Of a DNA stretch of 32,000 nt, positions 20,268 to 27,706 are shown one piece after another. Within the stretch, counting starts at the first letter, position 1; the number at the start of each line of letters is the position of its first letter. A program made the translations under genes and the position numbers. The notes beneath the pieces are model-generated. The model saw nothing but the letters and a program-made list of their open reading frames with translations. It did no database searches and was not told the DNA's origin. Source of the stretch: Cupriavidus necator (GTDB lineage: Bacteria > Pseudomonadota > Gammaproteobacteria > Burkholderiales > Burkholderiaceae); assembly GCF_016127575.1 (NCBI RefSeq), contig NZ_CP066019.1, forward strand, positions 2,880,001-2,912,000, given 5' to 3'.

Positions 20268-21053
20268 TCAGTCGCGCAGGCCCGGGCGGGTTTCGCTTTC
20301 CACCCAGACGTTGGCGCTGTCGACGCCGGCCGGCGACAACTCCATGCGGTATTCATAGCGGTCCGGGCGGTACTGGCCGAGCAGCAACTGGACCGGGCGC
20401 CCGGCCGCGTCCTTGACCACGCGGCGCACCGCCAGCAGCGCGCCGCCTACCGGCACGTCCAGCAGCGGCGCCACCACCACGTCGGCCAGGCGCGCGGACA
20501 GCACCTGGCTGGCACGGCCCAGCTTCACGCCGCCGGCCTCCAGCAGCCGCAGCACCGGCCGCTCTTCCAGGGACTGGCGCGTGATCGGCCGGCCCAGGTC
20601 GGCGGGCAGGTAGACCGTGATATGCGACAGCGGCCGGTTGCGGTAGTGGCGCACGCGCACGATCTTCACCACCGGATCGCCCGGCTCGATCTGCAGCGAT
20701 TCGGCCACATCGGGCGTGGCATGGACTTCGTCGATCGAGATCACCTTCACCGACGTCTTCTGGCCCATGTCGATGATGTTGTCGAGCAGGCTGGTGCCGC
20801 GTTCCTCGCCGGCCGCCGTCGCCGGGCGCACCGGATGCGGGTTGACGAAGGTGCCAAGCCCGCGGTGGCGGCGCACCAGGCCTTCTTGCACCAGGCGGTC
20901 GAACACGCGCCGCATGGTCACGCGCGAGGCGTGGAACTGCTTGGCCAGGTCGATCTCGCCCGGCAAGGGGCCCTGGCCGAAGCGGCCTTCCACGATCTGC
21001 TGGCGCAATACCACGTAAATCTGGTGATACAGGGGAACGACGGCTTCACTCAT
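20268..21053 (-). CDS. GntR-family (HutC-type, UTRA domain) transcriptional regulator
   Basis: 261 aa. The N-terminal wHTH is YHQIYVVLRQQIVEGRFGQGPLPGEIDLAKQFHASRVTMRRVFDRLVQEGLVRRHRGLGTFV, followed by a C-terminal UTRA-like effector domain. Confidence 0.9.
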   Translation of the reverse strand: MSEAVVPLYHQIYVVLRQQIVEGRFGQGPLPGEIDLAKQFHASRVTMRRVFDRLVQEGLVRRHRGLGTFVNPHPVRPATAAGEERGTSLLDNIIDMGQKTSVKVISIDEVHATPDVAESLQIEPGDPVVKIVRVRHYRNRPLSHITVYLPADLGRPITRQSLEERPVLRLLEAGGVKLGRASQVLSARLADVVVAPLLDVPVGGALLAVRRVVKDAAGRPVQLLLGQYRPDRYEYRMELSPAGVDSANVWVESETRPGLRD

Positions 21054-21506
21054 GGTTTCCCTTGCGGAGAGATGACAAGTCTGTAATGCCTCTAATGTAC
21101 TTTAAATCAGACATAGAGCCTAGCATGGTTAGCCGCAGTGGCGCTTGCGGGACAACTGCGCCGGCGCGGTGTTGCAGCGATGCATCTCGTCTGTGCCGAG
21201 ACCCTTGGCTGGCTGCGCCAGCGCGGGTGAAGTCGGTCTGGCGCCGCTGCATGCCTTGCTGGGATGGACAACGCCGGTGCGGTGGAGCGGGTTGTGCCGT
21301 GCGGCGAGAACAGGACATCGGGGCGCCGCCGCAGCAATGTGGAGATGCCCCACACGGGCGGCGACGACGGCACCCTCGATGCCGTGTTTCAGTCCCGATA
21401 CGTAAGGTCGCGCCTCGGGCAAATTCTGGCTGCCGGCATAAGACCCTGAAAAATAAGGCGTTTTCCGACTACCCCGGAACCCCCCCAGGTGGGCCGGGAG
21501 TGGCCG

Positions 21507-21524
21507 TGTCACAGCGGTGTGACA
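21507..21524. promoter_or_regulatory. Perfect inverted repeat TGTCACA-GCGG-TGTGACA in the leader of the Gly-rich-protein operon
   Basis: Read directly. 21507..21513 is the reverse complement of 21518..21524. A further TGTGACA copy lies at 21745..21751, 27 nt upstream of the gene 1 ATG. The binding factor is unknown. Confidence 0.35.
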
Positions 21525-21777
21525 TGTCGTCTGCCGTGCACAGCGGCGAGGGCGGCAAGCGTCGCGCAAAGCCGCGGAAAGTCCCCGCCAGAGTGCCGGG
21601 CGGGCCTTGTAATACAAGGAGTTGGCGCCGCAGGTGGCGCAGCTGGCACCGATTATGCGCAAGGGGAGTCTGGTTTGGCTGGGTGCCGGACCTGAACCTC
21701 CAGCCGTCGTTCCTCGCAAGAGCGCCGGCCGGAGGCTGAGCCGCTGTGACACTGTGCAATTCTCCTGGGAGCTTCGT

Positions 21778-23292
21778 ATGAAAAAGACCTTACTGGCGTC
21801 GGCTATCGCCATGGCATTTGCGGGACAGGCCTGGGCAAATCCGACCAATAACAACGACGTGGTAAGAGGTGGCGGCGACAACACGCAAACCGCCACAGCG
21901 ACCTCGACGCAGAGTGGCAGCGGCGCGGCGGCAAACGAATATTCGACCGCAGTCCAGGCCAATGACAGCAGCACCAACACCAGAACCACCACGGTTGGCG
22001 TCAACAAGACCAAGACCACGACCAACTCGAACAACAGGAGCAGGATCGACTTTGACCATGGCGTAGGCAACGCGGGCTCCAACGGTGGCAGCGCAACCTC
22101 CAGCGTAAGCAACGCCTTCAACACCAGCAAGGCACTGGCGATCAGCAAGCTGAATGGCACGGTTTCCAACAACAGCATTGGCCCGATCGGCAATTACGCC
22201 ACCAACTGGGGTAACGCGAATGGTGCAGCCGGTGGCCGGGGCGGCAATGGCTTTGGCGGTACCGGCGAAGGCGGGCGCGGCGGCAACGGCGGCAACGGCG
22301 GTAACGGCGGCAGCGGCGGCTCCGGTGGCAGCGCTACCAACGGTAGCGCCACCAATGGCGACGCCACCAACGGCAGCGCCAACGCTGGTAATGGCGGTGC
22401 CGGCGGCAAGGCGATTGGCTGGGCCGGCAGTGGCGGTGACGGCAAGGCATATGGCGGCAGCGCACTCTCCGCAGCGGGCAGCAAGGGCGGCAGCGGCGGC
22501 GATGCTTATGGCAAGGGCGGCGGCGCTCTGAGCGCATCGCTCGGCGCCGGCGGCCGCGGCGGCAGTGCCGGCGCGATCGGCGGTGGTGGCCTGGGTGCCA
22601 GCGGCGCCCTGGGCGGCTTGGCAGGTTCGGCCGGCGGCTCAGGTGGTAGCAGCGGCAATGCCAACGGTGCGGGTGGCGACACTACCACTGGCGGCGCAGG
22701 CGGCGCAGGCGGCGCAGCGGCCGGTACCAACACGGCTGGCGCAGGCACCGGTTCGGGCGGCGCAGGTACCGCGAGTGGCGGTGCGGGCGGTGCCGGAACG
22801 GCAGCTGCAGGCGCGACCGGCGGAGCCGGCAGCGGCACCGGCGGTGCCGGTGGCGCGGGCGGCGCGGCGACCTCGACCGCAACGGCGGGCGCGGCAAGCG
22901 GCACCGGCGGCGCGGGCGGCACGCAAGCCAGCGTTGGCGGCGCGGGCGGTACTGGCGGTTCGGCCACGAACGGCAGCGCAACGAGTTCGGCCTCCAATGG
23001 CAGCTCCACGGCTGGCAACGGTGCGGTGGGTGCTACCGGCGGCGCGGGCGGCGCGGGCGGCACTGGCAATGGCGGCACTGGCGGCACCGGCAACGGCGCA
23101 GTCGGCGGCGCTGGCGGTAATGGCGGTTACAACATTGTTGACGCGGGCACCTTCAATATGTCCAACACCATGACCAGCGTTGGTCAAACGGCGGCGGGCA
23201 TCATGATGGCCAACCAGAACAGCGGCGCTGCCTCGCTCGTGCAGCAAAGCGTGAACGTTCAGGCCAACCTGCAGGTCGGCGGCAACCGGTAA
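21778..23292 (+). CDS. Secreted 504-aa glycine-rich (PGRS-like) repeat protein; putative major fibre/matrix subunit of the Fap-like operon
   Basis: Start at ATG 21778 with GGGAG 6 nt upstream. The signal peptide is MKKTLLASAIAMAFAGQAWA|N. There is a DVVRGG motif at aa 27-32. The N-terminal region is Thr/Asn/Ser-rich. By hand count, aa 151-450 contain about 134 Gly in 300 residues, as GGAGG/GGNGG/GGSGG units. No charged residue occurs between aa 302 and 454, and the mature part has no Cys. The C-terminal core NIVDAGTFN...AAGIMMANQNSGAASLVQQSVNVQANL is paralogous to gene 2. Confidence 0.85.
   Translation: MKKTLLASAIAMAFAGQAWANPTNNNDVVRGGGDNTQTATATSTQSGSGAAANEYSTAVQANDSSTNTRTTTVGVNKTKTTTNSNNRSRIDFDHGVGNAGSNGGSATSSVSNAFNTSKALAISKLNGTVSNNSIGPIGNYATNWGNANGAAGGRGGNGFGGTGEGGRGGNGGNGGNGGSGGSGGSATNGSATNGDATNGSANAGNGGAGGKAIGWAGSGGDGKAYGGSALSAAGSKGGSGGDAYGKGGGALSASLGAGGRGGSAGAIGGGGLGASGALGGLAGSAGGSGGSSGNANGAGGDTTTGGAGGAGGAAAGTNTAGAGTGSGGAGTASGGAGGAGTAAAGATGGAGSGTGGAGGAGGAATSTATAGAASGTGGAGGTQASVGGAGGTGGSATNGSATSSASNGSSTAGNGAVGATGGAGGAGGTGNGGTGGTGNGAVGGAGGNGGYNIVDAGTFNMSNTMTSVGQTAAGIMMANQNSGAASLVQQSVNVQANLQVGGNR
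22279..22377 (+). repeat. In-frame tandem codon repeats inside the Gly-rich gene
   Basis: Six 9-nt units occupy 22279..22332: GGCGGCAAC, GGCGGCAAC, GGCGGTAAC, GGCGGCAGC, GGCGGCTCC, GGTGGCAGC. Three 15-nt units encoding ATNG[S/D] occupy 22333..22377. Looser GGAGG-type periodicity continues to about 23127. Confidence 0.8.
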
Positions 23293-23305
23293 GGCGTGCA
23301 GCCAC

Positions 23306-23338
23306 GGTCTGGCCCGGGACTTGTGCCCGGGCCAGACC
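23306..23338 (+). terminator. Strong hairpin 14 nt after the gene 1 stop (intra-operon attenuator or partial terminator)
   Basis: GGTCTGGCCCGGG-ACTTGTG-CCCGGGCCAGACC, a perfect 13-bp GC-rich stem read directly. No U-tract follows it. Confidence 0.5.
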
Positions 23339-23359
23339 GGCAGCTCGCACTCATGCCGG

Positions 23360-23402
23360 CAGGACCGGCGCCCGCATCCTGTGTGCGGGCGCGCGGGTCC
23401 TG
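23360..23402 (+). terminator. Second compound hairpin in the gene 1 / gene 2 spacer
   Basis: CAGGACC-G-GCGCCCGCA-TCCTGTG-TGCGGGCGC-GCG-GGTCCTG. The inner 9-bp and outer 7-bp stems are both perfect. No U-tract follows. Confidence 0.4.
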
Positions 23403-23477
23403 TCATGCCCCAAGCAAGCCTGATTGCCTTGCAGCCGTCCGGATGGGGGCGGCCGGCAGGCAAGGGGAGACGACATC

Positions 23478-23912
23478 ATGCAATCGGTCCGCTTCGCCGT
23501 CGGCGCATTCGCGACGGTCTTACTCGCCTGGCCAGTGCTGCAGGCGCACGCTGAGCCGCCAGGGCTGGACGCCGCCATGGCAGCGGCGCGCGCTGCTTCT
23601 GGCGCTGCCCCGGACACGGCTGCAATCACCGCACAGCCGACGGCCGCAACTTCCTTGTTCGGAGGGGTGGCGAAAGCCGTACCCGTGTCTAAACTGGATG
23701 ACATCCGTGGCGGCGCCGAGGTCACGGTCAACGATATGCGCCTGCACGGTACCGTGGCCGACAACGCCGCGGTCAATATTCTGTCCGGCACCAACAACAT
23801 CGCGGACGGGGCCTTCTCGAATGCGGCAGGGATTCCCACCGCGATCCAGAACTCGGGCTCCAACGTACTGATCCAGAACGCCACTATCGTCAACGTCCAG
23901 TTCAAGCAATGA
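23478..23912 (+). CDS. Small secreted Asn/Gln/Ala-rich protein with a double-glycine-type pro-region (short paralogue of gene 1; FapB-like role proposed)
   Basis: Start at ATG 23478, preceded by AGGGGAGA. The signal peptide is MQSVRFAVGAFATVLLAWPVLQAHA|E. An Ala/Pro/Thr-rich pro-region follows, ending in KLDDIRGG at aa 72-79 (nt 23691..23714). The 65-aa C-terminal core is AEVTVNDMRLHGTVADNAAVNILSGTNNIADGAFSNAAGIPTAIQNSGSNVLIQNATIVNVQFKQ. Confidence 0.8.
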   Translation: MQSVRFAVGAFATVLLAWPVLQAHAEPPGLDAAMAAARAASGAAPDTAAITAQPTAATSLFGGVAKAVPVSKLDDIRGGAEVTVNDMRLHGTVADNAAVNILSGTNNIADGAFSNAAGIPTAIQNSGSNVLIQNATIVNVQFKQ

Positions 23913-24607
23913 AGCCGCTGCGAAACCTGTTGGCGTCTGTACCGTTCTTGCTGGCCGCGGGGGGCGTTCCATGTGCCCAGGCTGCCGACACCCTGATATA
24001 CGGGCCGGTCGGCGAGTCCTACAACGTCCGGGTCACGAGCGTGCGCGAGGCTCGCTTCAAGTCCACGATCCGGCAGCAGTTCGACTTCAGCTGCGGCTCG
24101 GCCGCGGTGGCCACGCTGCTGAGCTACCAGTACGGCCATCCGATGAATGAGGCCACGGTCTTCCAGAACATGTACCTCAACGGCGACCAGCAGAAGATCC
24201 GCGCCGAGGGGTTCTCGCTGCTCGACATGAAGCGCTTCCTGGCCGCGCTCGGCTATGAGGCGGACGGCTACGAGCTGCCACTGTCCAAGCTGGAAGAGAC
24301 GCAGGTGCCGGCCATCGTGCTGATCGTGGAGAACGGTTACCACCATTTCGTGGTGGTCAAGGGCGTGAAGGGCGACCGCGTGCTGATCGGCGATCCCGCA
24401 CGCGGCACGCGCGCGATGTCACGCGAGCATTTCGAGCAGATCTGGGACAGCCAGCTGCTGTTCGTGATCCATAACCGCACCGAACGGGCGCGGTTCAACC
24501 TTGCAGCCGACTGGCGCGTTGCGCCGAGCGGTCCTTACTGGATGGGAGTCAACCGGGATAGCTTGTTCTTCACCGTCATGCCCAAGCATGGCGCGGGCGA
24601 TTTTTGA
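23909..24607 (+). CDS. Stand-alone, signal-peptide-bearing C39-family cysteine peptidase (FapD-like)
   Basis: The ATG overlaps the gene 2 stop (ATGA at 23909..23912). The signal peptide is MKPLRNLLASVPFLLAAGGVPCAQA|A. C39 motifs are Gln plus the catalytic Cys in RQQFDFSCGSAAVATLL (Cys62, nt 24092..24094), and His/Asp in GYHHFVVVKGVKGDRVLIGDPA. No ABC-transporter domain is attached. Confidence 0.85.
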   Translation: MKPLRNLLASVPFLLAAGGVPCAQAADTLIYGPVGESYNVRVTSVREARFKSTIRQQFDFSCGSAAVATLLSYQYGHPMNEATVFQNMYLNGDQQKIRAEGFSLLDMKRFLAALGYEADGYELPLSKLEETQVPAIVLIVENGYHHFVVVKGVKGDRVLIGDPARGTRAMSREHFEQIWDSQLLFVIHNRTERARFNLAADWRVAPSGPYWMGVNRDSLFFTVMPKHGAGDF

Positions 24608-24617
24608 GGAACGCATC

Positions 24618-25463
24618 ATGTTGCAGACTTCCTTCCCGACCCCAGCAGCCCCTCGCAGCGCCGGTCATGCGGCCGCGGCGATGCTGCTCGGGGCCGGTTT
24701 GGCCTGTGCCGGCACGGCGCAGGCCACCATGCTGCCACAGCCCGACGCCCTCGACGCGTCGGCGCTTCCATTGCAGGGGGCCATGCCCTCGAGCGACGGG
24801 CAGGACCAAAACCCTCTGGCTGCCGCACGCGGCAGCATGGCCGGCTGGAAACCGGTAGCACACGAAAAACTCGACGACATGCGGGGCGGCTTCGAAGTGC
24901 CGGGCCTGCAGGTTTCGTTCGGTATCGAACGCGCGGTGTACATCAACGGGGCCCTGGTGGTTGCCACCAGCATTAACATCCCCGATGTCAGCCGTATCAC
25001 CGCCGACCAGGCTGCGCGGCTTGCCTCGACGCTGGGCCCGGCCATCGTTGCCAGCACCAATGCGGCGGTCGCCAACGCGCTGGCGGCGGCGGGCGCGGCC
25101 GGTTCGGATGGGAGCGCCACCTCGGCGGCCAATGGCGCCTCGGCCAGCAGCACCGGCACGTCCGGGGCCGGTTCGGGCGCCAGCGGTGCGGCGGGCTTGC
25201 CGGCGGCGGTGGTGAATACGGCCACCGGTCAGGTCGTGAGCAATGGGCTGTTGAACGTGATCCAGAACGGCCCGGGCAATGCGGCATCGGTGGGATCGCT
25301 GGCGGGGACGCCAACGACCGTGATCCAGAACACCTTGAACAACCAGAGCATCCGGAGCCTGATGACAATCGACGCAAGCGTAAATACGCTGCAGGCATTC
25401 CGGTCGCAGTTGGCCAACACCACGCTGAACAACGCGCTGATGCGGGCCGCAAGCATGAGGTAG
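24618..25463 (+). CDS. Secreted 281-aa Ala/Gly/Ser/Asn-rich protein with a double-glycine-type pro-region (third cargo paralogue, in the FapE position)
   Basis: Start at ATG 24618 with GAGGA 7 nt upstream, 10 nt after the peptidase stop. The signal peptide ends ...AGLACAGTAQA|T. KLDDMRGG lies at aa 84-91 (nt 24867..24890). There is a central low-complexity AAAGAAGSDGSATSAANGASASSTGTSGAGSGASGAAG stretch. The C-terminal region has LAGTPTTVIQNTLNNQ and LLNVIQNGPGNAAS motifs related to genes 1 and 2. Confidence 0.8.
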   Translation: MLQTSFPTPAAPRSAGHAAAAMLLGAGLACAGTAQATMLPQPDALDASALPLQGAMPSSDGQDQNPLAAARGSMAGWKPVAHEKLDDMRGGFEVPGLQVSFGIERAVYINGALVVATSINIPDVSRITADQAARLASTLGPAIVASTNAAVANALAAAGAAGSDGSATSAANGASASSTGTSGAGSGASGAAGLPAAVVNTATGQVVSNGLLNVIQNGPGNAASVGSLAGTPTTVIQNTLNNQSIRSLMTIDASVNTLQAFRSQLANTTLNNALMRAASMR

Positions 25464-25539
25464 TCGTAGCGAGGCATCGGGCAGTACAGGTCGCAGGCTC
25501 CTGCAAGAACAGCCTGCCGTCCCGGGGGAGGAAGACGTC

Positions 25540-26979
25540 ATGAAGAAGCGGTCGATGCAGGGCATTCGCAATGCGGGATGCTCGACGTTACTGTTGCTCG
25601 GCGGCCTGGCGCAGGCCCAGACGCCGCCGGATGCGGGACCACCCGCAGCCGGACTGGAAGCACTGCAGAAGGAGCTTGCCGAACAGGCCACCCAGCTCGA
25701 CGCCATGAAGCGGGCGCTGGCCGAACAGGAGGCGCTGATCCGCGAACTGCGTAACGTGATCGGCACCGAGGTGCTGGCCAACAAGCGCGGCGGCCAGCGC
25801 GCGGGGCCAGGCGTGTCGCCGTCCGACAATGCCACCAACGCCGCTACCGCGGCGGCCGCTGCCAGCGCCACCCAGTCAGCGCCCAACGCGGTCAACAACC
25901 CGCAGCAGATCATTCTCCAGCCACCGCAGGACATGGCCCAGGGTCCGCAGGCGGGCGAGTCCGCCGACCGGCAGACCGTGGCCCTGGAAGAACCCGTGGG
26001 CCGCCCGCCGGAGGAAGACCGCCGTCCGCCTGAGATCGCGCCGATCATCGACCAGCCCGGCGTGCTGACCGCCCAGGGCAAGCTGGTGATCGAGCCCGGC
26101 TTCCAGTACGGCTATTCGTCCAATAACCGCGTCGCGCTGGTCGGCTACACGGTCATCCCGGCCATCCTGATCGGCCTGGTCGATGTGCGCGAAGTCAAGA
26201 CCTCGACCTACATCCCGTCGGTAGCGTTTCGCTACGGCCTGACCAAGCGGCTGGAAATCGAAGCCAAGGTGCCTTACGTGCACTCATCGGGCCAGACAGT
26301 CAGCCGCGAGGTCTTCACCGGCACGGCCGTCGACCGCGTGTTCAATGCGAGCGGCAGCGGTATCGGCGACGTCGAGGCGACGGTGCGCTACCAGCTCAAC
26401 TACGGCAACGAGAAGATTCCGTACTTCGTCGGCTGGCTGCGCTACAAGTCCAATACCGGCACCGACCCGTTCGAGGTCGTGACCGACTGCGTGACGCGCT
26501 GCGTGGGCAATGCCACCGGCACCGGCCTGCCGCTCGGGTTGCCCACCGGCACCGGCTTCCAGGCGATCCAGCCCGGCATCACCTGGCTGCTGCCGACTGA
26601 CCCGGCGGTGTTCTTCGGCACCTTCAGCTACCTGCACAACTTTGCGCGCGACAACGTGAGCCGCACCGTGCTGAACGGCGAGAAGGAGAATCTCGGCAAG
26701 ATCGCCCCCGGCGACATCTTCGAGTTCAGCTTCGGCATGGGCCTGTCGCTCAATGAGAAGGCGTCGTTCAGCATCGGCTATGACCAGGCCATCATCTGGC
26801 CGACCAAGCAGAACGGCCAGACCGTGCCGGGCTCGGTGCGCGTGACCCAGGGCACCTTGCTGGTGGGCTATTCGTACCGCTTCAACAACCGCTACACGGT
26901 GAACCTTTCAGTGGGTGCGGGGCTGACGCGCGACACCCCCGACCTGCAGGTGAACCTGCGCCTGCCAATCACTTTCTGA
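25540..26979 (+). CDS. Outer-membrane beta-barrel channel with N-terminal coiled coil and long linker (FapF-like / MetA-pathway-type OM transporter)
   Basis: GGGGGAGGAAG lies upstream of ATG 25540. The signal peptide is ...LLLLGGLAQA|Q. The heptad-like helix GLEALQKELAEQATQLDAMKRALAEQEALIRELRNVIG spans aa 38-75. A Pro/Ala/Gln/Asn-rich linker of about 95 aa follows. The remainder shows alternating-hydrophobic beta-strand patterning (VIEPGFQYGYSS, GIGDVEATVRYQL, LLVGYSYRF) and ends in the OMP-type terminus NLRLPITF. Confidence 0.85.
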   Translation: MKKRSMQGIRNAGCSTLLLLGGLAQAQTPPDAGPPAAGLEALQKELAEQATQLDAMKRALAEQEALIRELRNVIGTEVLANKRGGQRAGPGVSPSDNATNAATAAAAASATQSAPNAVNNPQQIILQPPQDMAQGPQAGESADRQTVALEEPVGRPPEEDRRPPEIAPIIDQPGVLTAQGKLVIEPGFQYGYSSNNRVALVGYTVIPAILIGLVDVREVKTSTYIPSVAFRYGLTKRLEIEAKVPYVHSSGQTVSREVFTGTAVDRVFNASGSGIGDVEATVRYQLNYGNEKIPYFVGWLRYKSNTGTDPFEVVTDCVTRCVGNATGTGLPLGLPTGTGFQAIQPGITWLLPTDPAVFFGTFSYLHNFARDNVSRTVLNGEKENLGKIAPGDIFEFSFGMGLSLNEKASFSIGYDQAIIWPTKQNGQTVPGSVRVTQGTLLVGYSYRFNNRYTVNLSVGAGLTRDTPDLQVNLRLPITF

Positions 26980-27013
26980 CGCGCCTTGCTGCGAATTTCC
27001 GCCTGACGTGACG

Positions 27014-27038
27014 CGTGCCCCGCATGTGCGGGGGCACG
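27014..27038 (+). terminator. GC-rich hairpin 35 nt after the barrel-gene stop (candidate operon terminator)
   Basis: CGTGCCCCGC-ATGT-GCG(G)GGGCACG, a 10-bp stem with one bulged G. No clear U-tract follows. Confidence 0.4.
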
Positions 27039-27193
27039 TGCGCATCACATCCGCGGCGAGGGTGCGCAGGCACGGAAACGCGCCTTGCGCTGGCCCCTTG
27101 AACGGCGTACAAAGAAATAACCCCGCGCCGCCAGCGGTACTTTCTGACCAGGCTCAAACTCACCGGCGGTGCGGCCTGAAAAAGGAGAGAGAC

Positions 27194-27706
27194 ATGCGCA
27201 AACGCATCTTCTGGTTGTTGCCCGACCTGGCGAGTGCCCGTCGCACCATGGACGACCTGCTGCTTGCCCGGCTCGAGAACCGCCACATCCACTTCGTGGC
27301 GCGCGACGGCTCCGACATGACCGGCCTGCATGAAGCCAACCTGTTCCAGACCTCCGACATCGTGCATGCCGCCGAGATGGGCTTGATGGTCGGCGGCGGC
27401 GTGGGCGTCGTGGCCGGCGTCGTGGTGGCGATGTTCCCGATCGTCAGCGACACCCCGCAGTGGGGCCTCGTCGGCGTGCTGGCGGTGCTGGGCGCGGTGT
27501 TTGGCGCGTGGGCCTCGAGCATGATCGGCAGTTCGGCACCCAACAGCCGGCTGCGTGCATTCGAGAAGGACATCGAGGCCGGCAAGATCCTGCTGATGGT
27601 CGACGTGCCGCGCAGCCGTGTCGAGGAAATCGAAACCCTGCTCGCGAACGCGCATCCGGAAGCCAGCTTTGCGGGGTTGGACCCGGCTGTGCCGGCTTTC
27701 CCCTGA
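27194..27706 (+). CDS. Small membrane protein of unknown function (two Gly-zipper-like TM segments)
   Basis: Start at ATG 27194 with AAGGAGAG upstream. It is 170 aa, with a soluble N-terminal domain, hydrophobic GLMVGGGVGVVAGVVVAMFPI and WGLVGVLAVLGAVFGAWASSMIG segments, and a soluble C-terminal domain. The upstream codons of the track ORF were rejected. Confidence 0.7.
   Translation: MRKRIFWLLPDLASARRTMDDLLLARLENRHIHFVARDGSDMTGLHEANLFQTSDIVHAAEMGLMVGGGVGVVAGVVVAMFPIVSDTPQWGLVGVLAVLGAVFGAWASSMIGSSAPNSRLRAFEKDIEAGKILLMVDVPRSRVEEIETLLANAHPEASFAGLDPAVPAFP

What the first reader, a model, noticed from the sequence alone, without database searches (positions are those of the whole stretch)
21778..23292. 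PGRS-like glycine-rich protein built as a short core split by a Gly-rich insertion of about 300 aa
Gene 1 aligns with the 65-aa core of gene 2 at both ends. KLNGTVSNNSIG (aa 124-135) matches RLHGTVADNAAV. NIVDAGTFN...AAGIMMANQNSGAASLVQQSVNVQ (aa 452-495) matches NIADGAFSNAAGIPTAIQNSGSNVLIQNATIVNVQ. Between these ends, gene 1 carries about 300 residues of GGAGG/GGNGG/GGSGG/ATNGS units. By hand count there are about 134 Gly in aa 151-450, and no charged residue from aa 302 to 454. Gene 4 has the same cores with an intermediate Ala/Gly/Ser insertion of about 60-70 aa. So one fold unit appears in three paralogues with insertions of about 0, about 65 and about 300 aa. This recalls the short FapB versus linker-expanded FapC relationship. 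Compositionally the insert resembles mycobacterial PE_PGRS repeats, which is an analogy and not a homology claim, and is unusual for a betaproteobacterial secreted protein. At the DNA level the insert contains exact tandem 9-nt and 15-nt units at 22279-22377. It may therefore vary in length between strains.
Basis: seen in the sequence. Interest (0 to 1): 0.75.

Follow-up and report, generated by a model that had tools for sequence, protein, structure and literature searches.

The report
Glycine-rich subunit of Fap-like secretion operon
The glycine-rich gene is real and conserved, and it is most likely the main secreted building block of an undescribed, distant cousin of the Pseudomonas Fap biofilm-fibre system, whose partner proteins carry a clear candidate cutting site for the system's protease.

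Summary
Gene 1 (21778-23292, 504 aa; Cupriavidus necator H16 chromosome 2) has 134 Gly in aa 151-450 and no charged residue in aa 302-454. Its two ends align with the 65-aa core of gene 2. With the full-length profile the two hits are separate (E=0.0017 and 0.02). With a natural 212-aa homologue lacking the insert as master, the alignment is continuous (E=7e-6, score 40.9; shuffles reach 15 at most). Natural homologues carry inserts from about 10 to about 510 aa.

The context decides the reading. Genes 1-5 form a five-gene operon conserved in 80 loci and also present in Luteimonas and Nitrospira. Gene 3 is a FapD-type periplasmic C39 peptidase. Gene 4 is a remote FapE homologue. Gene 5 is a FapF-type outer-membrane channel. 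All three sit in fap gene order. Genes 1 and 2 are not detectably FapB/FapC.

Genes 2 and 4 carry an invariant L-x3-R-G-G leader, and gene 5 carries L-x3-R-G-[G/A/T]. Gene 1 has no such site. A sigma-54 promoter and a hairpin after gene 1 are conserved.

Best reading: gene 1 is the major fibre subunit of a divergent Fap-type system. Fibre or amyloid formation is inferred, not shown. The PGRS likeness is compositional only.

The parts
21644..21659 (+). Sigma-54-type promoter (TGGCAC-N5-TATGC) 134 nt upstream of the gene 1 ATG
   Evidence: Found. The pattern TGGCA[CT]-N5-[TA]TGC occurs upstream of gene 1 in 68 of 69 orthologous loci, at -78 to -184. A single match in the window would not be significant on its own; the conservation is the evidence.
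21778..23292 (+). Gene 1: 504-aa secreted Gly-rich protein, the proposed major subunit. Signal peptide aa 1-20, followed by a polar Thr/Asn/Ser-rich region to about aa 110.
   Evidence: Annotated as a 504-aa product in C. necator H16 AM260480.1. Orthologues of 389-781 aa, all 23-35% Gly, occur in 69 loci.
22111..22224 (+). N-core of gene 1 (aa 112-149: NAFNTSKALAISKLNGTVSNNSIGPIGNYATNWGNANG)
   Evidence: Conserved block in the family alignments, with invariant F, L, G, V and GN. It aligns to gene 2 aa 87-101.
22225..23127 (+). Gly-rich insert (aa 150-450). Composition: 45% Gly, 21% Ala, with Ser, Thr and Asn. It has a (GGX)n tendency and contains imperfect 9-nt and 15-nt tandem units at 22278-22381.
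   Evidence: Composition. Gly autocorrelation peaks at lag 3 (0.31). TRF results. Length in homologues ranges from about 10 to about 510 aa. WIN against L003 is 64% identical with few indels.
23128..23289 (+). C-core of gene 1 (aa 451-504: YNIVDAGTFNMSNTMTSVGQTAAGIMMANQNSGAASLVQQSVNVQANLQVGGNR)
   Evidence: This is the most conserved part of the family, 70-92% identical across genera. It aligns to gene 2 aa 103-141.
23305..23339 (+). GC-rich hairpin (13-14 bp stem) directly after the gene 1 stop codon. Proposed partial terminator or mRNA stabiliser.
   Evidence: Free energy -39.5 kcal/mol, z=-4.85, with 0 of 200 shuffles as stable. Strong hairpins with different sequences lie 0-30 nt after the gene 1 stop in nearly all 80 loci.
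23478..23912 (+). Gene 2: 144-aa precursor made of a signal peptide, a variable pro-region, the leader motif LDDIRGG (aa 73-79, 23694-23714) and the 65-aa conserved core (aa 80-144).
   Evidence: R-G-G is invariant in 79 of 79 sequences and L at -6 is present in 97%. The family has 1249 clusters at 50% identity with E<=1e-3. No Pfam, NCBIfam or PDB match.
23909..24607 (+). Gene 3: periplasmic C39 cysteine peptidase, FapD-type. Cys62, His145/146 and Asp162 are present.
   Evidence: Pfam Peptidase_C39 E=9e-25. NCBIfam FapD 146 bits (cut-off 330) and FilB 137 bits. 38% identity to Pseudomonas FapD, E=1e-40, with the catalytic motifs aligned.
24618..25463 (+). Gene 4: 281-aa FapE-like protein with the leader motif LDDMRGG (aa 85-91, 24870-24890) and a lineage-specific Ala/Gly/Ser insert of about 75 aa.
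   Evidence: hhalign against the FapE family gives E=9.5e-6, score 44.8, with shuffles at most 20.5. BLASTP gives E=9e-5. R-G-G is invariant in 78 of 78 sequences. The insert is absent from other genera.
25540..26979 (+). Gene 5: FapF-type outer-membrane beta-barrel with an N-terminal coiled coil (aa 39-74), the linker motif LANKRGG (aa 79-85, 25774-25794) and the PTG motif (aa 334-339).
   Evidence: phmmer against PDB 5o67 FapF gives E=7e-28 over aa 160-479. NCBIfam FapF 143 bits (cut-off 700). L-x3-R-G-[GAT] follows the coiled coil in every full-length orthologue read, across all genera (read by eye, not counted).

Best explanation
Gene 1 is most likely the major secreted structural subunit of a divergent Fap-type fibre system encoded by genes 1-5 of a sigma-54-controlled operon. 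The Fap system makes the functional amyloid of Pseudomonas.

Proposed path:
1. All five products enter the periplasm through Sec. This is shown only in the sense that each has a signal peptide.
2. The FapD-like C39 peptidase (gene 3) cuts after the invariant R-G-G of the L-x3-R-G-G leaders of gene 2 and gene 4, and possibly at the related site in the periplasmic linker of the gene 5 channel. This step is inferred.
3. The unfolded subunits leave through the trimeric FapF-like barrel (gene 5). This is inferred from homology.
4. Outside the cell, the conserved Q/N/G/A/V-rich core polymerises. The core is the N-core plus the C-core in gene 1, and the contiguous 65 residues in mature gene 2. Mature gene 2 would act as the insert-free minor subunit or nucleator, and the FapE-like gene 4 as an accessory or anchor. 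This step is inferred.
5. The (GGX)n-rich insert of about 300 aa loops out of the gene 1 core between the two half-cores. It would form a flexible, uncharged coat or spacer on the fibre, comparable in role to the variable FapC linkers. This step is inferred.

The hairpin after gene 1 would raise the amount of gene 1 product relative to the downstream genes.
For: - Operon content and order match fapB/C-D-E-F. Gene 3 is FapD-like, gene 4 is FapE-like and gene 5 is FapF-like.
- The five genes occur together in 80 loci from six or more genera, and in Luteimonas and Nitrospira.
- The gene 1 core aligns to the gene 2 core once the insert is ignored.
- Natural homologues span a continuum of insert lengths.
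- The gene 2 and gene 4 leaders have invariant R-G-G with hydrophobic residues at -3, -6 and -11 counted from the last Gly, that is P4, P7 and P12. From established knowledge, this is the spacing of double-glycine leaders cut by C39 peptidases.
- The peptidase keeps Cys, His and Asp.
- A related L-x3-R-G-[GAT] motif is present in the gene 5 linkers of all genera read. This fits the published view that FapD processes FapE and perhaps FapF (PMC6173800, PMC12822426, PMC7764130).
- There is no confident monomer fold despite very high conservation, as is typical of subunits that fold on assembly.
- The hairpin after gene 1 is conserved, as is the sigma-54 promoter. Enhancer-binding proteins, including a VpsR-like one, lie next to the operon in other genera.
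Against: - There is no experimental evidence for a fibre, for amyloid, for secretion or for cleavage.
- Genes 1 and 2 show no significant similarity to FapB or FapC. hhalign gives E=0.023-0.069, and the gene 2-FapB score of 19.9 lies inside the shuffle range. There is no PDB hit, although FapC is in the PDB.
- Each subunit has one core unit rather than the three or more imperfect repeats of FapC or CsgA. Evidence for an internal repeat is weak (E about 0.01).
- There is no FapA.
- Gene 1 has no conserved leader or RGG site, so its relation to the peptidase is unknown.
- The AlphaFold models are uninformative rather than supportive.
- The insert is conserved in sequence within genera, which fits a specific role better than a passive linker.
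Confidence: 0.6

Rival explanations
1. The operon is a Fap-type secretion system, but gene 1 is not a fibre subunit. Instead it is a non-polymerising surface or matrix protein, such as an adhesin, a hydration layer or an anti-adhesive coat. On this reading the conserved core serves as an export or anchoring signal recognised by the channel or by gene 2 and gene 4, and the Gly-rich domain is the functional part.
For: - The insert is conserved in sequence and roughly in length within genera, with a constant Gly fraction of 0.40-0.45 and conserved sub-motifs such as GGALSASLGAGGRGG.
- Colocalised FapD/FapF pairs occur in five additional phyla, suggesting that the pair is a general exporter (PMC6173800).
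- There is no detectable FapB/C repeat.
- FapD- and FapF-type proteins also match the Acinetobacter Fil pilus-system models FilB and FilC.
Against: - Homologues with almost no insert keep the cores intact (P0132, P0133, P0141), so the cores, not the insert, are the indispensable part.
- The core is Q/N/G/A/V-rich with an alternating pattern, like known fibre repeats.
- Gene 2 consists of the core alone.
Confidence: 0.22
2. Genes 2 and 4 are double-glycine-leader peptides of a bacteriocin- or microcin-like system, processed by the C39 peptidase and released through the outer-membrane channel. Gene 1 would be a Gly-rich toxin or carrier.
For: - A C39 peptidase sits next to peptides with a leader ending in GG.
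- From general knowledge, class II microcins are Gly-rich.
Against: - The peptidase is a stand-alone periplasmic protein with a Sec signal, not the N-domain of an ABC exporter.
- No ABC transporter or immunity gene lies in the operon.
- The substrates carry Sec signal peptides in front of the leader.
- The mature gene 2 core is extremely conserved across genera, unlike fast-diversifying bacteriocins.
- The partners are FapE and FapF homologues.
Confidence: 0.05
3. The gene is a pseudogene, an assembly artefact, or a chance ORF in GC-rich repetitive DNA. A related alternative is that it is a relative of mycobacterial PE_PGRS proteins.
For: - Long antisense and off-frame ORFs overlap the region.
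- Metagenomic gene calls in this region are often fragmented or frameshifted (P0121, P0129, P0142, P0145).
- The composition resembles PGRS.
Against: - The frame is intact, with signal peptide, RBS, conserved promoter and conserved cores, in 69 genomes. All indels are in-frame.
- It is present and annotated as a 504-aa product in the complete H16 genome record.
- There is no PE domain or any Pfam hit. The only PDB matches are to RGG low-complexity tracts.
Confidence: 0.02

Closest known systems
Fap system of Pseudomonas (fapABCDEF, functional amyloid)
   Same: - A periplasmic C39 peptidase (gene 3 is 38% identical to FapD).
- A trimeric-type outer-membrane barrel with an N-terminal coiled coil and a PTG motif (gene 5 against FapF 5o67, E=7e-28).
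- A FapE-like protein between the two (gene 4).
- Two subunit genes upstream, one short and one expanded by a variable low-complexity region, as with FapB and FapC.
- All products are Sec-dependent.
   Different: - The subunits are not detectably FapB/FapC.
- There is one core unit per subunit instead of three 37-aa repeats.
- In gene 1 the variable region splits a single unit rather than separating repeats.
- The long subunit gene comes first.
- There is no FapA.
- The FapE-type leader ends in R-G-G (R-G-R in Pseudomonas FapE) and is also present on the small subunit, gene 2.
- Gene 3 and gene 5 score far below the NCBIfam equivalog cut-offs.
Acinetobacter Fil putative pilus system (FilB C39 peptidase, FilC outer-membrane protein; NCBIfam NF050078 and NF050079)
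   Same: Gene 3 matches FilB (137 bits) and gene 5 matches FilC (39 bits). This is another system built on a FapD/FapF-type pair.
   Different: Both scores are far below the cut-offs (475 and 630). NCBIfam returned no Fil-family match of any kind for genes 1, 2 and 4.
Curli (CsgA/CsgB with CsgG/E/F)
   Same: The logic is similar: a major subunit plus a small nucleator-like paralogue, Q/N/G-rich strand motifs, and secretion of unfolded subunits.
   Different: There is no Curlin repeat hit and no CsgG/E/F. The channel type is different.
Mycobacterial PE_PGRS proteins
   Same: A GGA/GGN-rich composition and a tendency to period 3.
   Different: There is no PE domain, no ESX context and no sequence similarity outside low complexity. 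The phylum and the secretion route are different.
Double-glycine leader peptides cut by C39 peptidases (bacteriocin and quorum-peptide exporters)
   Same: The leader ends in G-G, with hydrophobic residues at P4, P7 and P12 and acidic residues between them. The peptidase has Cys, His and Asp.
   Different: Here the leader follows a Sec signal peptide and the peptidase is free in the periplasm, not fused to an ABC exporter.

Membership tests
Fap functional-amyloid system | FapF outer-membrane beta-barrel transporter with an N-terminal coiled coil | tested here: met
   Gene 5 against PDB 5o67 FapF gives E=7e-28 over the whole barrel. The NCBIfam FapF model gives E=9e-42, but 143 bits is below the equivalog cut-off of 700. 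The coiled-coil segment at aa 39-74 was read directly from the sequence. Gene 5 is a homologue, not an equivalog.
Fap functional-amyloid system | FapD periplasmic C39 peptidase with a catalytic Cys | tested here: met
   38% identity, E=1e-40, with the FSCG, HFVV and IGDP motifs aligned. Pfam C39 E=9e-25. NCBIfam FapD 146 bits, below the cut-off of 330.
Fap functional-amyloid system | FapE encoded between fapD and fapF | tested here: met
   Gene 4 family against FapE family by hhalign: E=9.5e-6, probability 83%, score 44.8, with shuffles at most 20.5. BLASTP gives E=9e-5. The gene is in the same operon position. The similarity covers only the leader and the N-domain.
Fap functional-amyloid system | FapB/FapC subunits with three imperfect Fap repeats of about 37 aa | tested here: not met
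   Gene 2 against FapB gives E=0.023, and its score of 19.9 lies inside the shuffle range (maximum 22.3). Gene 2 against FapC gives E=0.069. The gene 1 core against FapC gives E=0.0033, but over low-complexity columns. There are no PDB or NCBIfam hits. Each protein has one core unit.
Fap functional-amyloid system | FapA chaperone or regulator gene | tested here: not met
   There is no sixth gene in the operon. Upstream lies a divergent GntR/UTRA regulator. Gene 2 against FapA gives E=0.26. According to PMC6173800, FapA is the Fap gene most often missing.
Fap functional-amyloid system | The product forms amyloid fibrils (SDS- or formic-acid-resistant, ThT-positive) | not testable with these tools
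   AlphaFold monomer models have low confidence (pLDDT 44 and 53). This neither supports nor refutes amyloid formation.
Double-glycine (C39) leader substrates | A leader ending in Gly-Gly, with conserved hydrophobic residues at P4, P7 and P12, encoded next to a C39 peptidase | tested here: met
   Met for gene 2 (79 of 79) and gene 4 (78 of 78): R-G-G is invariant, L at P7 is present in 97-100%, V at P12 in 82-92%, and P4 is hydrophobic. Not met for gene 1: VVRGGG is not conserved and there is no conserved RGG. Cleavage itself was not tested.
PE_PGRS | An N-terminal PE domain followed by PGRS repeats, in mycobacteria | tested here: not met
   No Pfam hit at E<=1. The N-terminus is a Sec signal peptide. 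The host is Cupriavidus.
Curli CsgA/CsgB | Curlin repeats and csgEFG partner genes | tested here: not met
   No Curlin_rpt hit, no PDB hit and no csg-like neighbours.
Acinetobacter Fil system | FilB and FilC at equivalog level, plus the other Fil proteins (FilA, FilD-F) | tested here: not met
   FilB 137 bits (cut-off 475) and FilC 39 bits (cut-off 630). NCBIfam returned no Fil-family match for genes 1, 2 and 4; I did not confirm which Fil models besides FilB and FilC the library holds.

The most novel reading that the evidence does not exclude
This would be a previously undescribed family of bacterial fibre or functional-amyloid systems that reuses the FapD/E/F export machinery with a new subunit family. 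It is widespread: the gene 2 family has more than 1200 clusters at 50% identity, and the operon occurs in Burkholderiales, Xanthomonadales and Nitrospira. In the major subunit a single cross-beta unit would be split by a conserved (GGX)n domain of 250-500 aa displayed on the fibre surface. The invariant L-x3-R-G-G sites on gene 2 and gene 4, and the related site in the channel's own linker, would be the long-sought recognition motif of FapD-type peptidases. That would make the open question 'what does FapD cut, and why is it needed for secretion' directly testable.
Probability: 0.4. Interest if true: 0.8.

Novelty: new variant of a known kind. Interest (0 to 1): 0.62.

Why it matters
- The library searches found no report of a defined FapD cleavage site; in the reviews read, FapD's substrate is described as undetermined, with hints at FapE and FapF. 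This sister system shows an invariant, textbook-like double-glycine site on two substrates and a related one on the channel. That gives concrete peptides for cleavage assays.
- It also shows that the FapD/E/F machinery serves at least one other subunit family.
- It offers a natural series of one fibre core with surface inserts from 10 to 500 aa. This is useful for understanding how linkers are tolerated, and for engineering display on bacterial fibres.
- The host, C. necator H16, is a genetically tractable industrial organism, so biofilm or aggregation control through this sigma-54-dependent operon could have practical interest.

Tried and rejected
- AlphaFold2 on gene 1 (27-sequence alignment) and gene 2 (80 sequences) gave mean pLDDT 43.7 and 53.3 with no beta structure. 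Fold searches were therefore not run, because they would be meaningless.
- A full-length gene 1 search of the 5.8-billion-protein set was swamped by Gly-rich candidates and returned only 11 homologues. A spliced N-core plus C-core query worked better.
- The N-terminal 'VVRGGG' of gene 1 looked like a third GG leader (BLASTP), but it is not conserved in orthologues. No RGG is conserved anywhere in gene 1.
- By eye, the gene 2 core resembles FapB repeat 2 (FSNGNGVLGVNQSAGANNQ against FSNAAGIPTAIQNSGSNVLIQ). However, the hhalign score is within the shuffle range, so the link is not claimed.
- An internal duplication within the 65-aa core is only hinted at (E about 0.007-0.012 over 10-11 columns).
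- Rfam found nothing in 21000-27300. The sigma-70 promoter and intrinsic terminator scans were empty or below expectation.
- Literature searches for H16 locus tags, for Fap-like or FapF-like systems, and for Fil found no description of this operon.
- PDB profile searches found only RGG low-complexity matches.
Full report
**What is at the coordinates**

The window is Cupriavidus necator H16 chromosome 2 (AM260480.1, about 61.6-70 kb), where the ORF is annotated as a 504-aa product. The ORF at 21778-23292 (+) starts with a Sec-type signal peptide. A polar Thr/Asn/Ser-rich stretch follows, then a conserved block at aa 112-149, a Gly-rich region and a conserved C-terminal block at aa 451-504.

There are 134 Gly in aa 151-450, and no charged residue between D301 and D455. 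The tandem DNA units exist but are imperfect. The period-9 array has 4.8 copies at 91% match and the period-15 array has 3.7 copies at 77% match. Only two 9-nt copies are identical.

**Is the 'split core' real?**

Single-sequence BLASTP is weak: only the C part matches, at E=0.005.

I extracted the gene 1, gene 2 and gene 4 orthologues from 80 related loci and compared the family profiles.
- Gene 2 against gene 1 gives two collinear local hits: the C part at E=0.0017 and the N part at E=0.02.
- A search with a spliced N-core plus C-core query found natural homologues with almost no insert. They are P0132 (212 aa), P0133 (209 aa), P0141 (212 aa) and P0134 (241 aa).
- With P0132 as master, so that insert columns drop out, gene 2 aa 87-141 align in one piece with the gene 1 core. 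The result is E=7e-6, probability 84%, score 40.9. The reversed profile scores 11.5 and 20 column shuffles reach at most 15.
- The invariant residues of the two families coincide.

So gene 1 and gene 2 share a core, and gene 1 carries an insertion in it.

The insert length forms a continuum:
- about 10-25 aa in some metagenomic homologues
- about 55-130 aa in others, including a Nitrospira protein
- 243-263 aa in Ralstonia
- 284-371 aa in Cupriavidus
- 410-510 aa in Oxalobacteraceae and Rhodoferax

The Gly fraction is a constant 0.40-0.45, and Gly positions show a period-3 signal.

Within Cupriavidus the insert aligns at 57-72% identity with few in-frame indels and conserved sub-motifs. It therefore behaves as a conserved domain, not a runaway microsatellite. 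One metagenomic contig (L081) is 87-91% identical in DNA to C. pauculus-group loci and lacks exactly the insert, an in-frame loss of about 924 nt. I cannot tell a real deletion from an assembly collapse.

**The context changes the interpretation**

Genes 1-5 (21778-26979) form one operon.
- **Gene 3** is a periplasmic C39 peptidase. Pfam gives E=9e-25 and its best NCBIfam match is FapD. It is 38% identical to Pseudomonas FapD, with Cys, His and Asp retained.
- **Gene 5** is a FapF homologue. PDB 5o67 gives E=7e-28 across the barrel, and the protein has an N-terminal coiled coil and the PTG motif.

To test the remaining genes I fetched canonical Pseudomonas fap operons, using the FapF sequence printed as the query.
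- **Gene 4** is a remote FapE homologue. hhalign gives E=9.5e-6 and score 44.8, with shuffles at most 20.5. BLASTP gives E=9e-5. The aligned segments are WKPV..LDDMRGGFEVPGLQVSFGI and FKPIE..LAQLRGRFVMPGRIVSFGI.
- **Genes 1 and 2** are not detectably FapB or FapC. The scores lie inside the shuffle range, and neither the PDB nor NCBIfam gives a match.

The gene order is subunit, subunit, D, E, F, the same as fapB-C-D-E-F. There is no FapA.

The five-gene set is conserved in all 80 loci, from Cupriavidus, Ralstonia, Rhodoferax, Massilia, Duganella, Pseudoduganella and others. The fifth gene is inverted or relocated in Ralstonia and Rhodoferax. The same five-gene layout (gene sizes and order, with a Pfam C39 hit on the middle gene) follows the gene 1 homologues of Luteimonas composti and a Nitrospira MAG; homology of the other three genes there was not tested. 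The gene 2 family alone has 1249 clusters at 50% identity and no Pfam model.

**Candidate processing sites**

Genes 2 and 4 both have a signal peptide, then a variable pro-region, then an invariant R-G-G. L lies six residues before the last Gly (97-100%), V eleven before (82-92%) and a hydrophobic residue three before. From established knowledge of bacteriocin and peptide-pheromone leaders, this is the P4/P7/P12 spacing of double-glycine leaders cut by C39 peptidases.

- Pseudomonas FapE has the same spacing but ends in R-G-R.
- Cutting gene 2 after R-G-G would release exactly the 65-aa conserved core.
- The gene 5 channel carries L-x3-R-G-[G/A/T] right after its coiled coil in every genus read.
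- Gene 1 has no conserved site of this kind.

The literature states that the FapD substrate is undetermined. It gives hints of FapE N-terminal loss and of FapF processing (PMC6173800, PMC7764130, PMC12822426). It also reports that fapD and fapF homologues colocalise in other phyla (PMC6173800).

**Regulation and stoichiometry**

- A sigma-54-type promoter at 21644-21659 (TGGCAC-N5-TATGC) is conserved upstream of gene 1 in 68 of 69 loci.
- Sigma-54 activators lie next to the operon in Rhodoferax, Oxalobacteraceae, Luteimonas (VpsR-like) and Nitrospira, but not in the H16 window.
- A strong hairpin follows the gene 1 stop codon (23305-23339, z=-4.85). Its structure, but not its sequence, is conserved in nearly all loci. 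This fits a higher output of gene 1 than of the downstream genes, as expected for a major subunit.

**Mechanism I consider most likely (confidence 0.6)**

This is a divergent Fap-type fibre system. The steps are Sec export, cleavage of gene 2 and gene 4 (and perhaps gene 5) by gene 3, export through gene 5, and extracellular polymerisation of the shared core. Gene 1 would be the major subunit, with its Gly-rich insert looping out as an uncharged flexible coat. Gene 2 would be the insert-free minor subunit or nucleator. Gene 4 would be the FapE-like accessory protein.

What is shown: the homologies, the conserved motifs and the operon conservation. What is inferred: cleavage, export, polymerisation and the roles of the individual proteins. 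AlphaFold monomer models were uninformative.

**Rivals**

- A non-polymerising surface protein exported by the same machinery (0.22).
- A bacteriocin-like system (0.05). Arguments against it are the Sec signals, the absence of an ABC exporter and immunity gene, and the extreme conservation of the gene 2 core.
- An artefact, a pseudogene or PE_PGRS kinship (0.02). This is refuted by conservation and by the lack of any PE domain.

**Novelty**

I rate this a new variant of a known kind. The export module is Fap-type. The subunit family, the split-core architecture and the explicit GG-type leaders were not described in the literature I could search.

Noticed in passing
window 21644-21659 (+): A sigma-54-type promoter, TGGCACCGATTATGCG, lies 134 nt upstream of gene 1. 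The same -24/-12 element occurs upstream of the gene 1 orthologue in 68 of 69 loci across genera. No enhancer-binding protein lies in the H16 window, but one is adjacent in Rhodoferax, Oxalobacteraceae, Luteimonas (VpsR-like) and Nitrospira loci.
   Followed up: partly
window 23305-23339 (+): A perfect GC-rich hairpin lies directly after the gene 1 stop codon (-39.5 kcal/mol, z=-4.85). Hairpins of similar strength but different sequence follow gene 1 in nearly all related loci. It may act as an attenuator or mRNA stabiliser that sets subunit stoichiometry.
   Followed up: partly
window 25774-25794 (gene 5 aa 79-85, LANKRGG): The FapF-like channel has an L-x3-R-G-[G/A/T] motif right after its coiled coil in every genus examined. 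Examples are LDTVRGAG in Ralstonia and LAAQRGAG in Rhodoferax. The motif is of the same type as the gene 2 and gene 4 leaders, and it may be a self-processing or gating site for the C39 peptidase.
   Followed up: partly
L081 4110-4748 (JGI metagenome contig Ga0672994_0001726): This is a gene 1 homologue of only 212 aa. Its flanks are 87-91% identical in DNA to C. pauculus-group loci, but it has a clean in-frame loss of the entire Gly-rich insert (about 924 nt). It could be a real deletion or an assembly collapse; this is undecided.
   Followed up: partly
L164 7001-11156 and L166 7001-11346: The same five-gene operon layout (Gly-rich subunit, small subunit, C39 peptidase, FapE-sized protein, FapF-sized protein) is present in a Nitrospira MAG and in Luteimonas composti, far outside Burkholderiales.
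   Followed up: partly
window 24618-25463 (gene 4 aa about 135-210): Cupriavidus gene 4 carries an Ala/Gly/Ser/Thr-rich insert of about 75-100 aa. It is missing from Ralstonia, Rhodoferax and Oxalobacteraceae orthologues (139-200 aa by a crude first-Met start). This is a second lineage-specific low-complexity expansion in the same operon.
   Followed up: yes
L001 (CP158804.1, titled Ralstonia pickettii strain RAL3 chromosome 2): The proteins of this locus are 87-97% identical to those of C. necator H16, far closer than any true Ralstonia locus (about 50-60%). The record is probably taxonomically mislabelled.
   Followed up: no
P0121, P0129, P0142, P0145 (metagenomic and genomic gene calls): Many database entries for gene 1 homologues are fragments, frameshifted, or merged with gene 2. 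Short-read contigs also often end inside the Gly-rich region (for example L083). The gene is therefore systematically under-called, which may explain why the family has gone unnoticed.
   Followed up: no
window 27194-27706 (+): A 170-aa ORF with Gly-rich hydrophobic (possibly membrane-spanning) segments and no Pfam match follows the operon. A 170-aa ORF occupies the same position in the other Cupriavidus loci examined (L081-L083); its sequence identity was not checked. Whether it belongs to the system is unknown.
   Followed up: no
window 22194-23463 (- strand and off-frame + ORFs): Long Pro/Ala/Arg-rich ORFs (up to 274 aa) overlap gene 1 on the opposite strand and in other frames. They are by-products of the GC-rich GGN repeat coding and should not be annotated as genes.
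   Followed up: no
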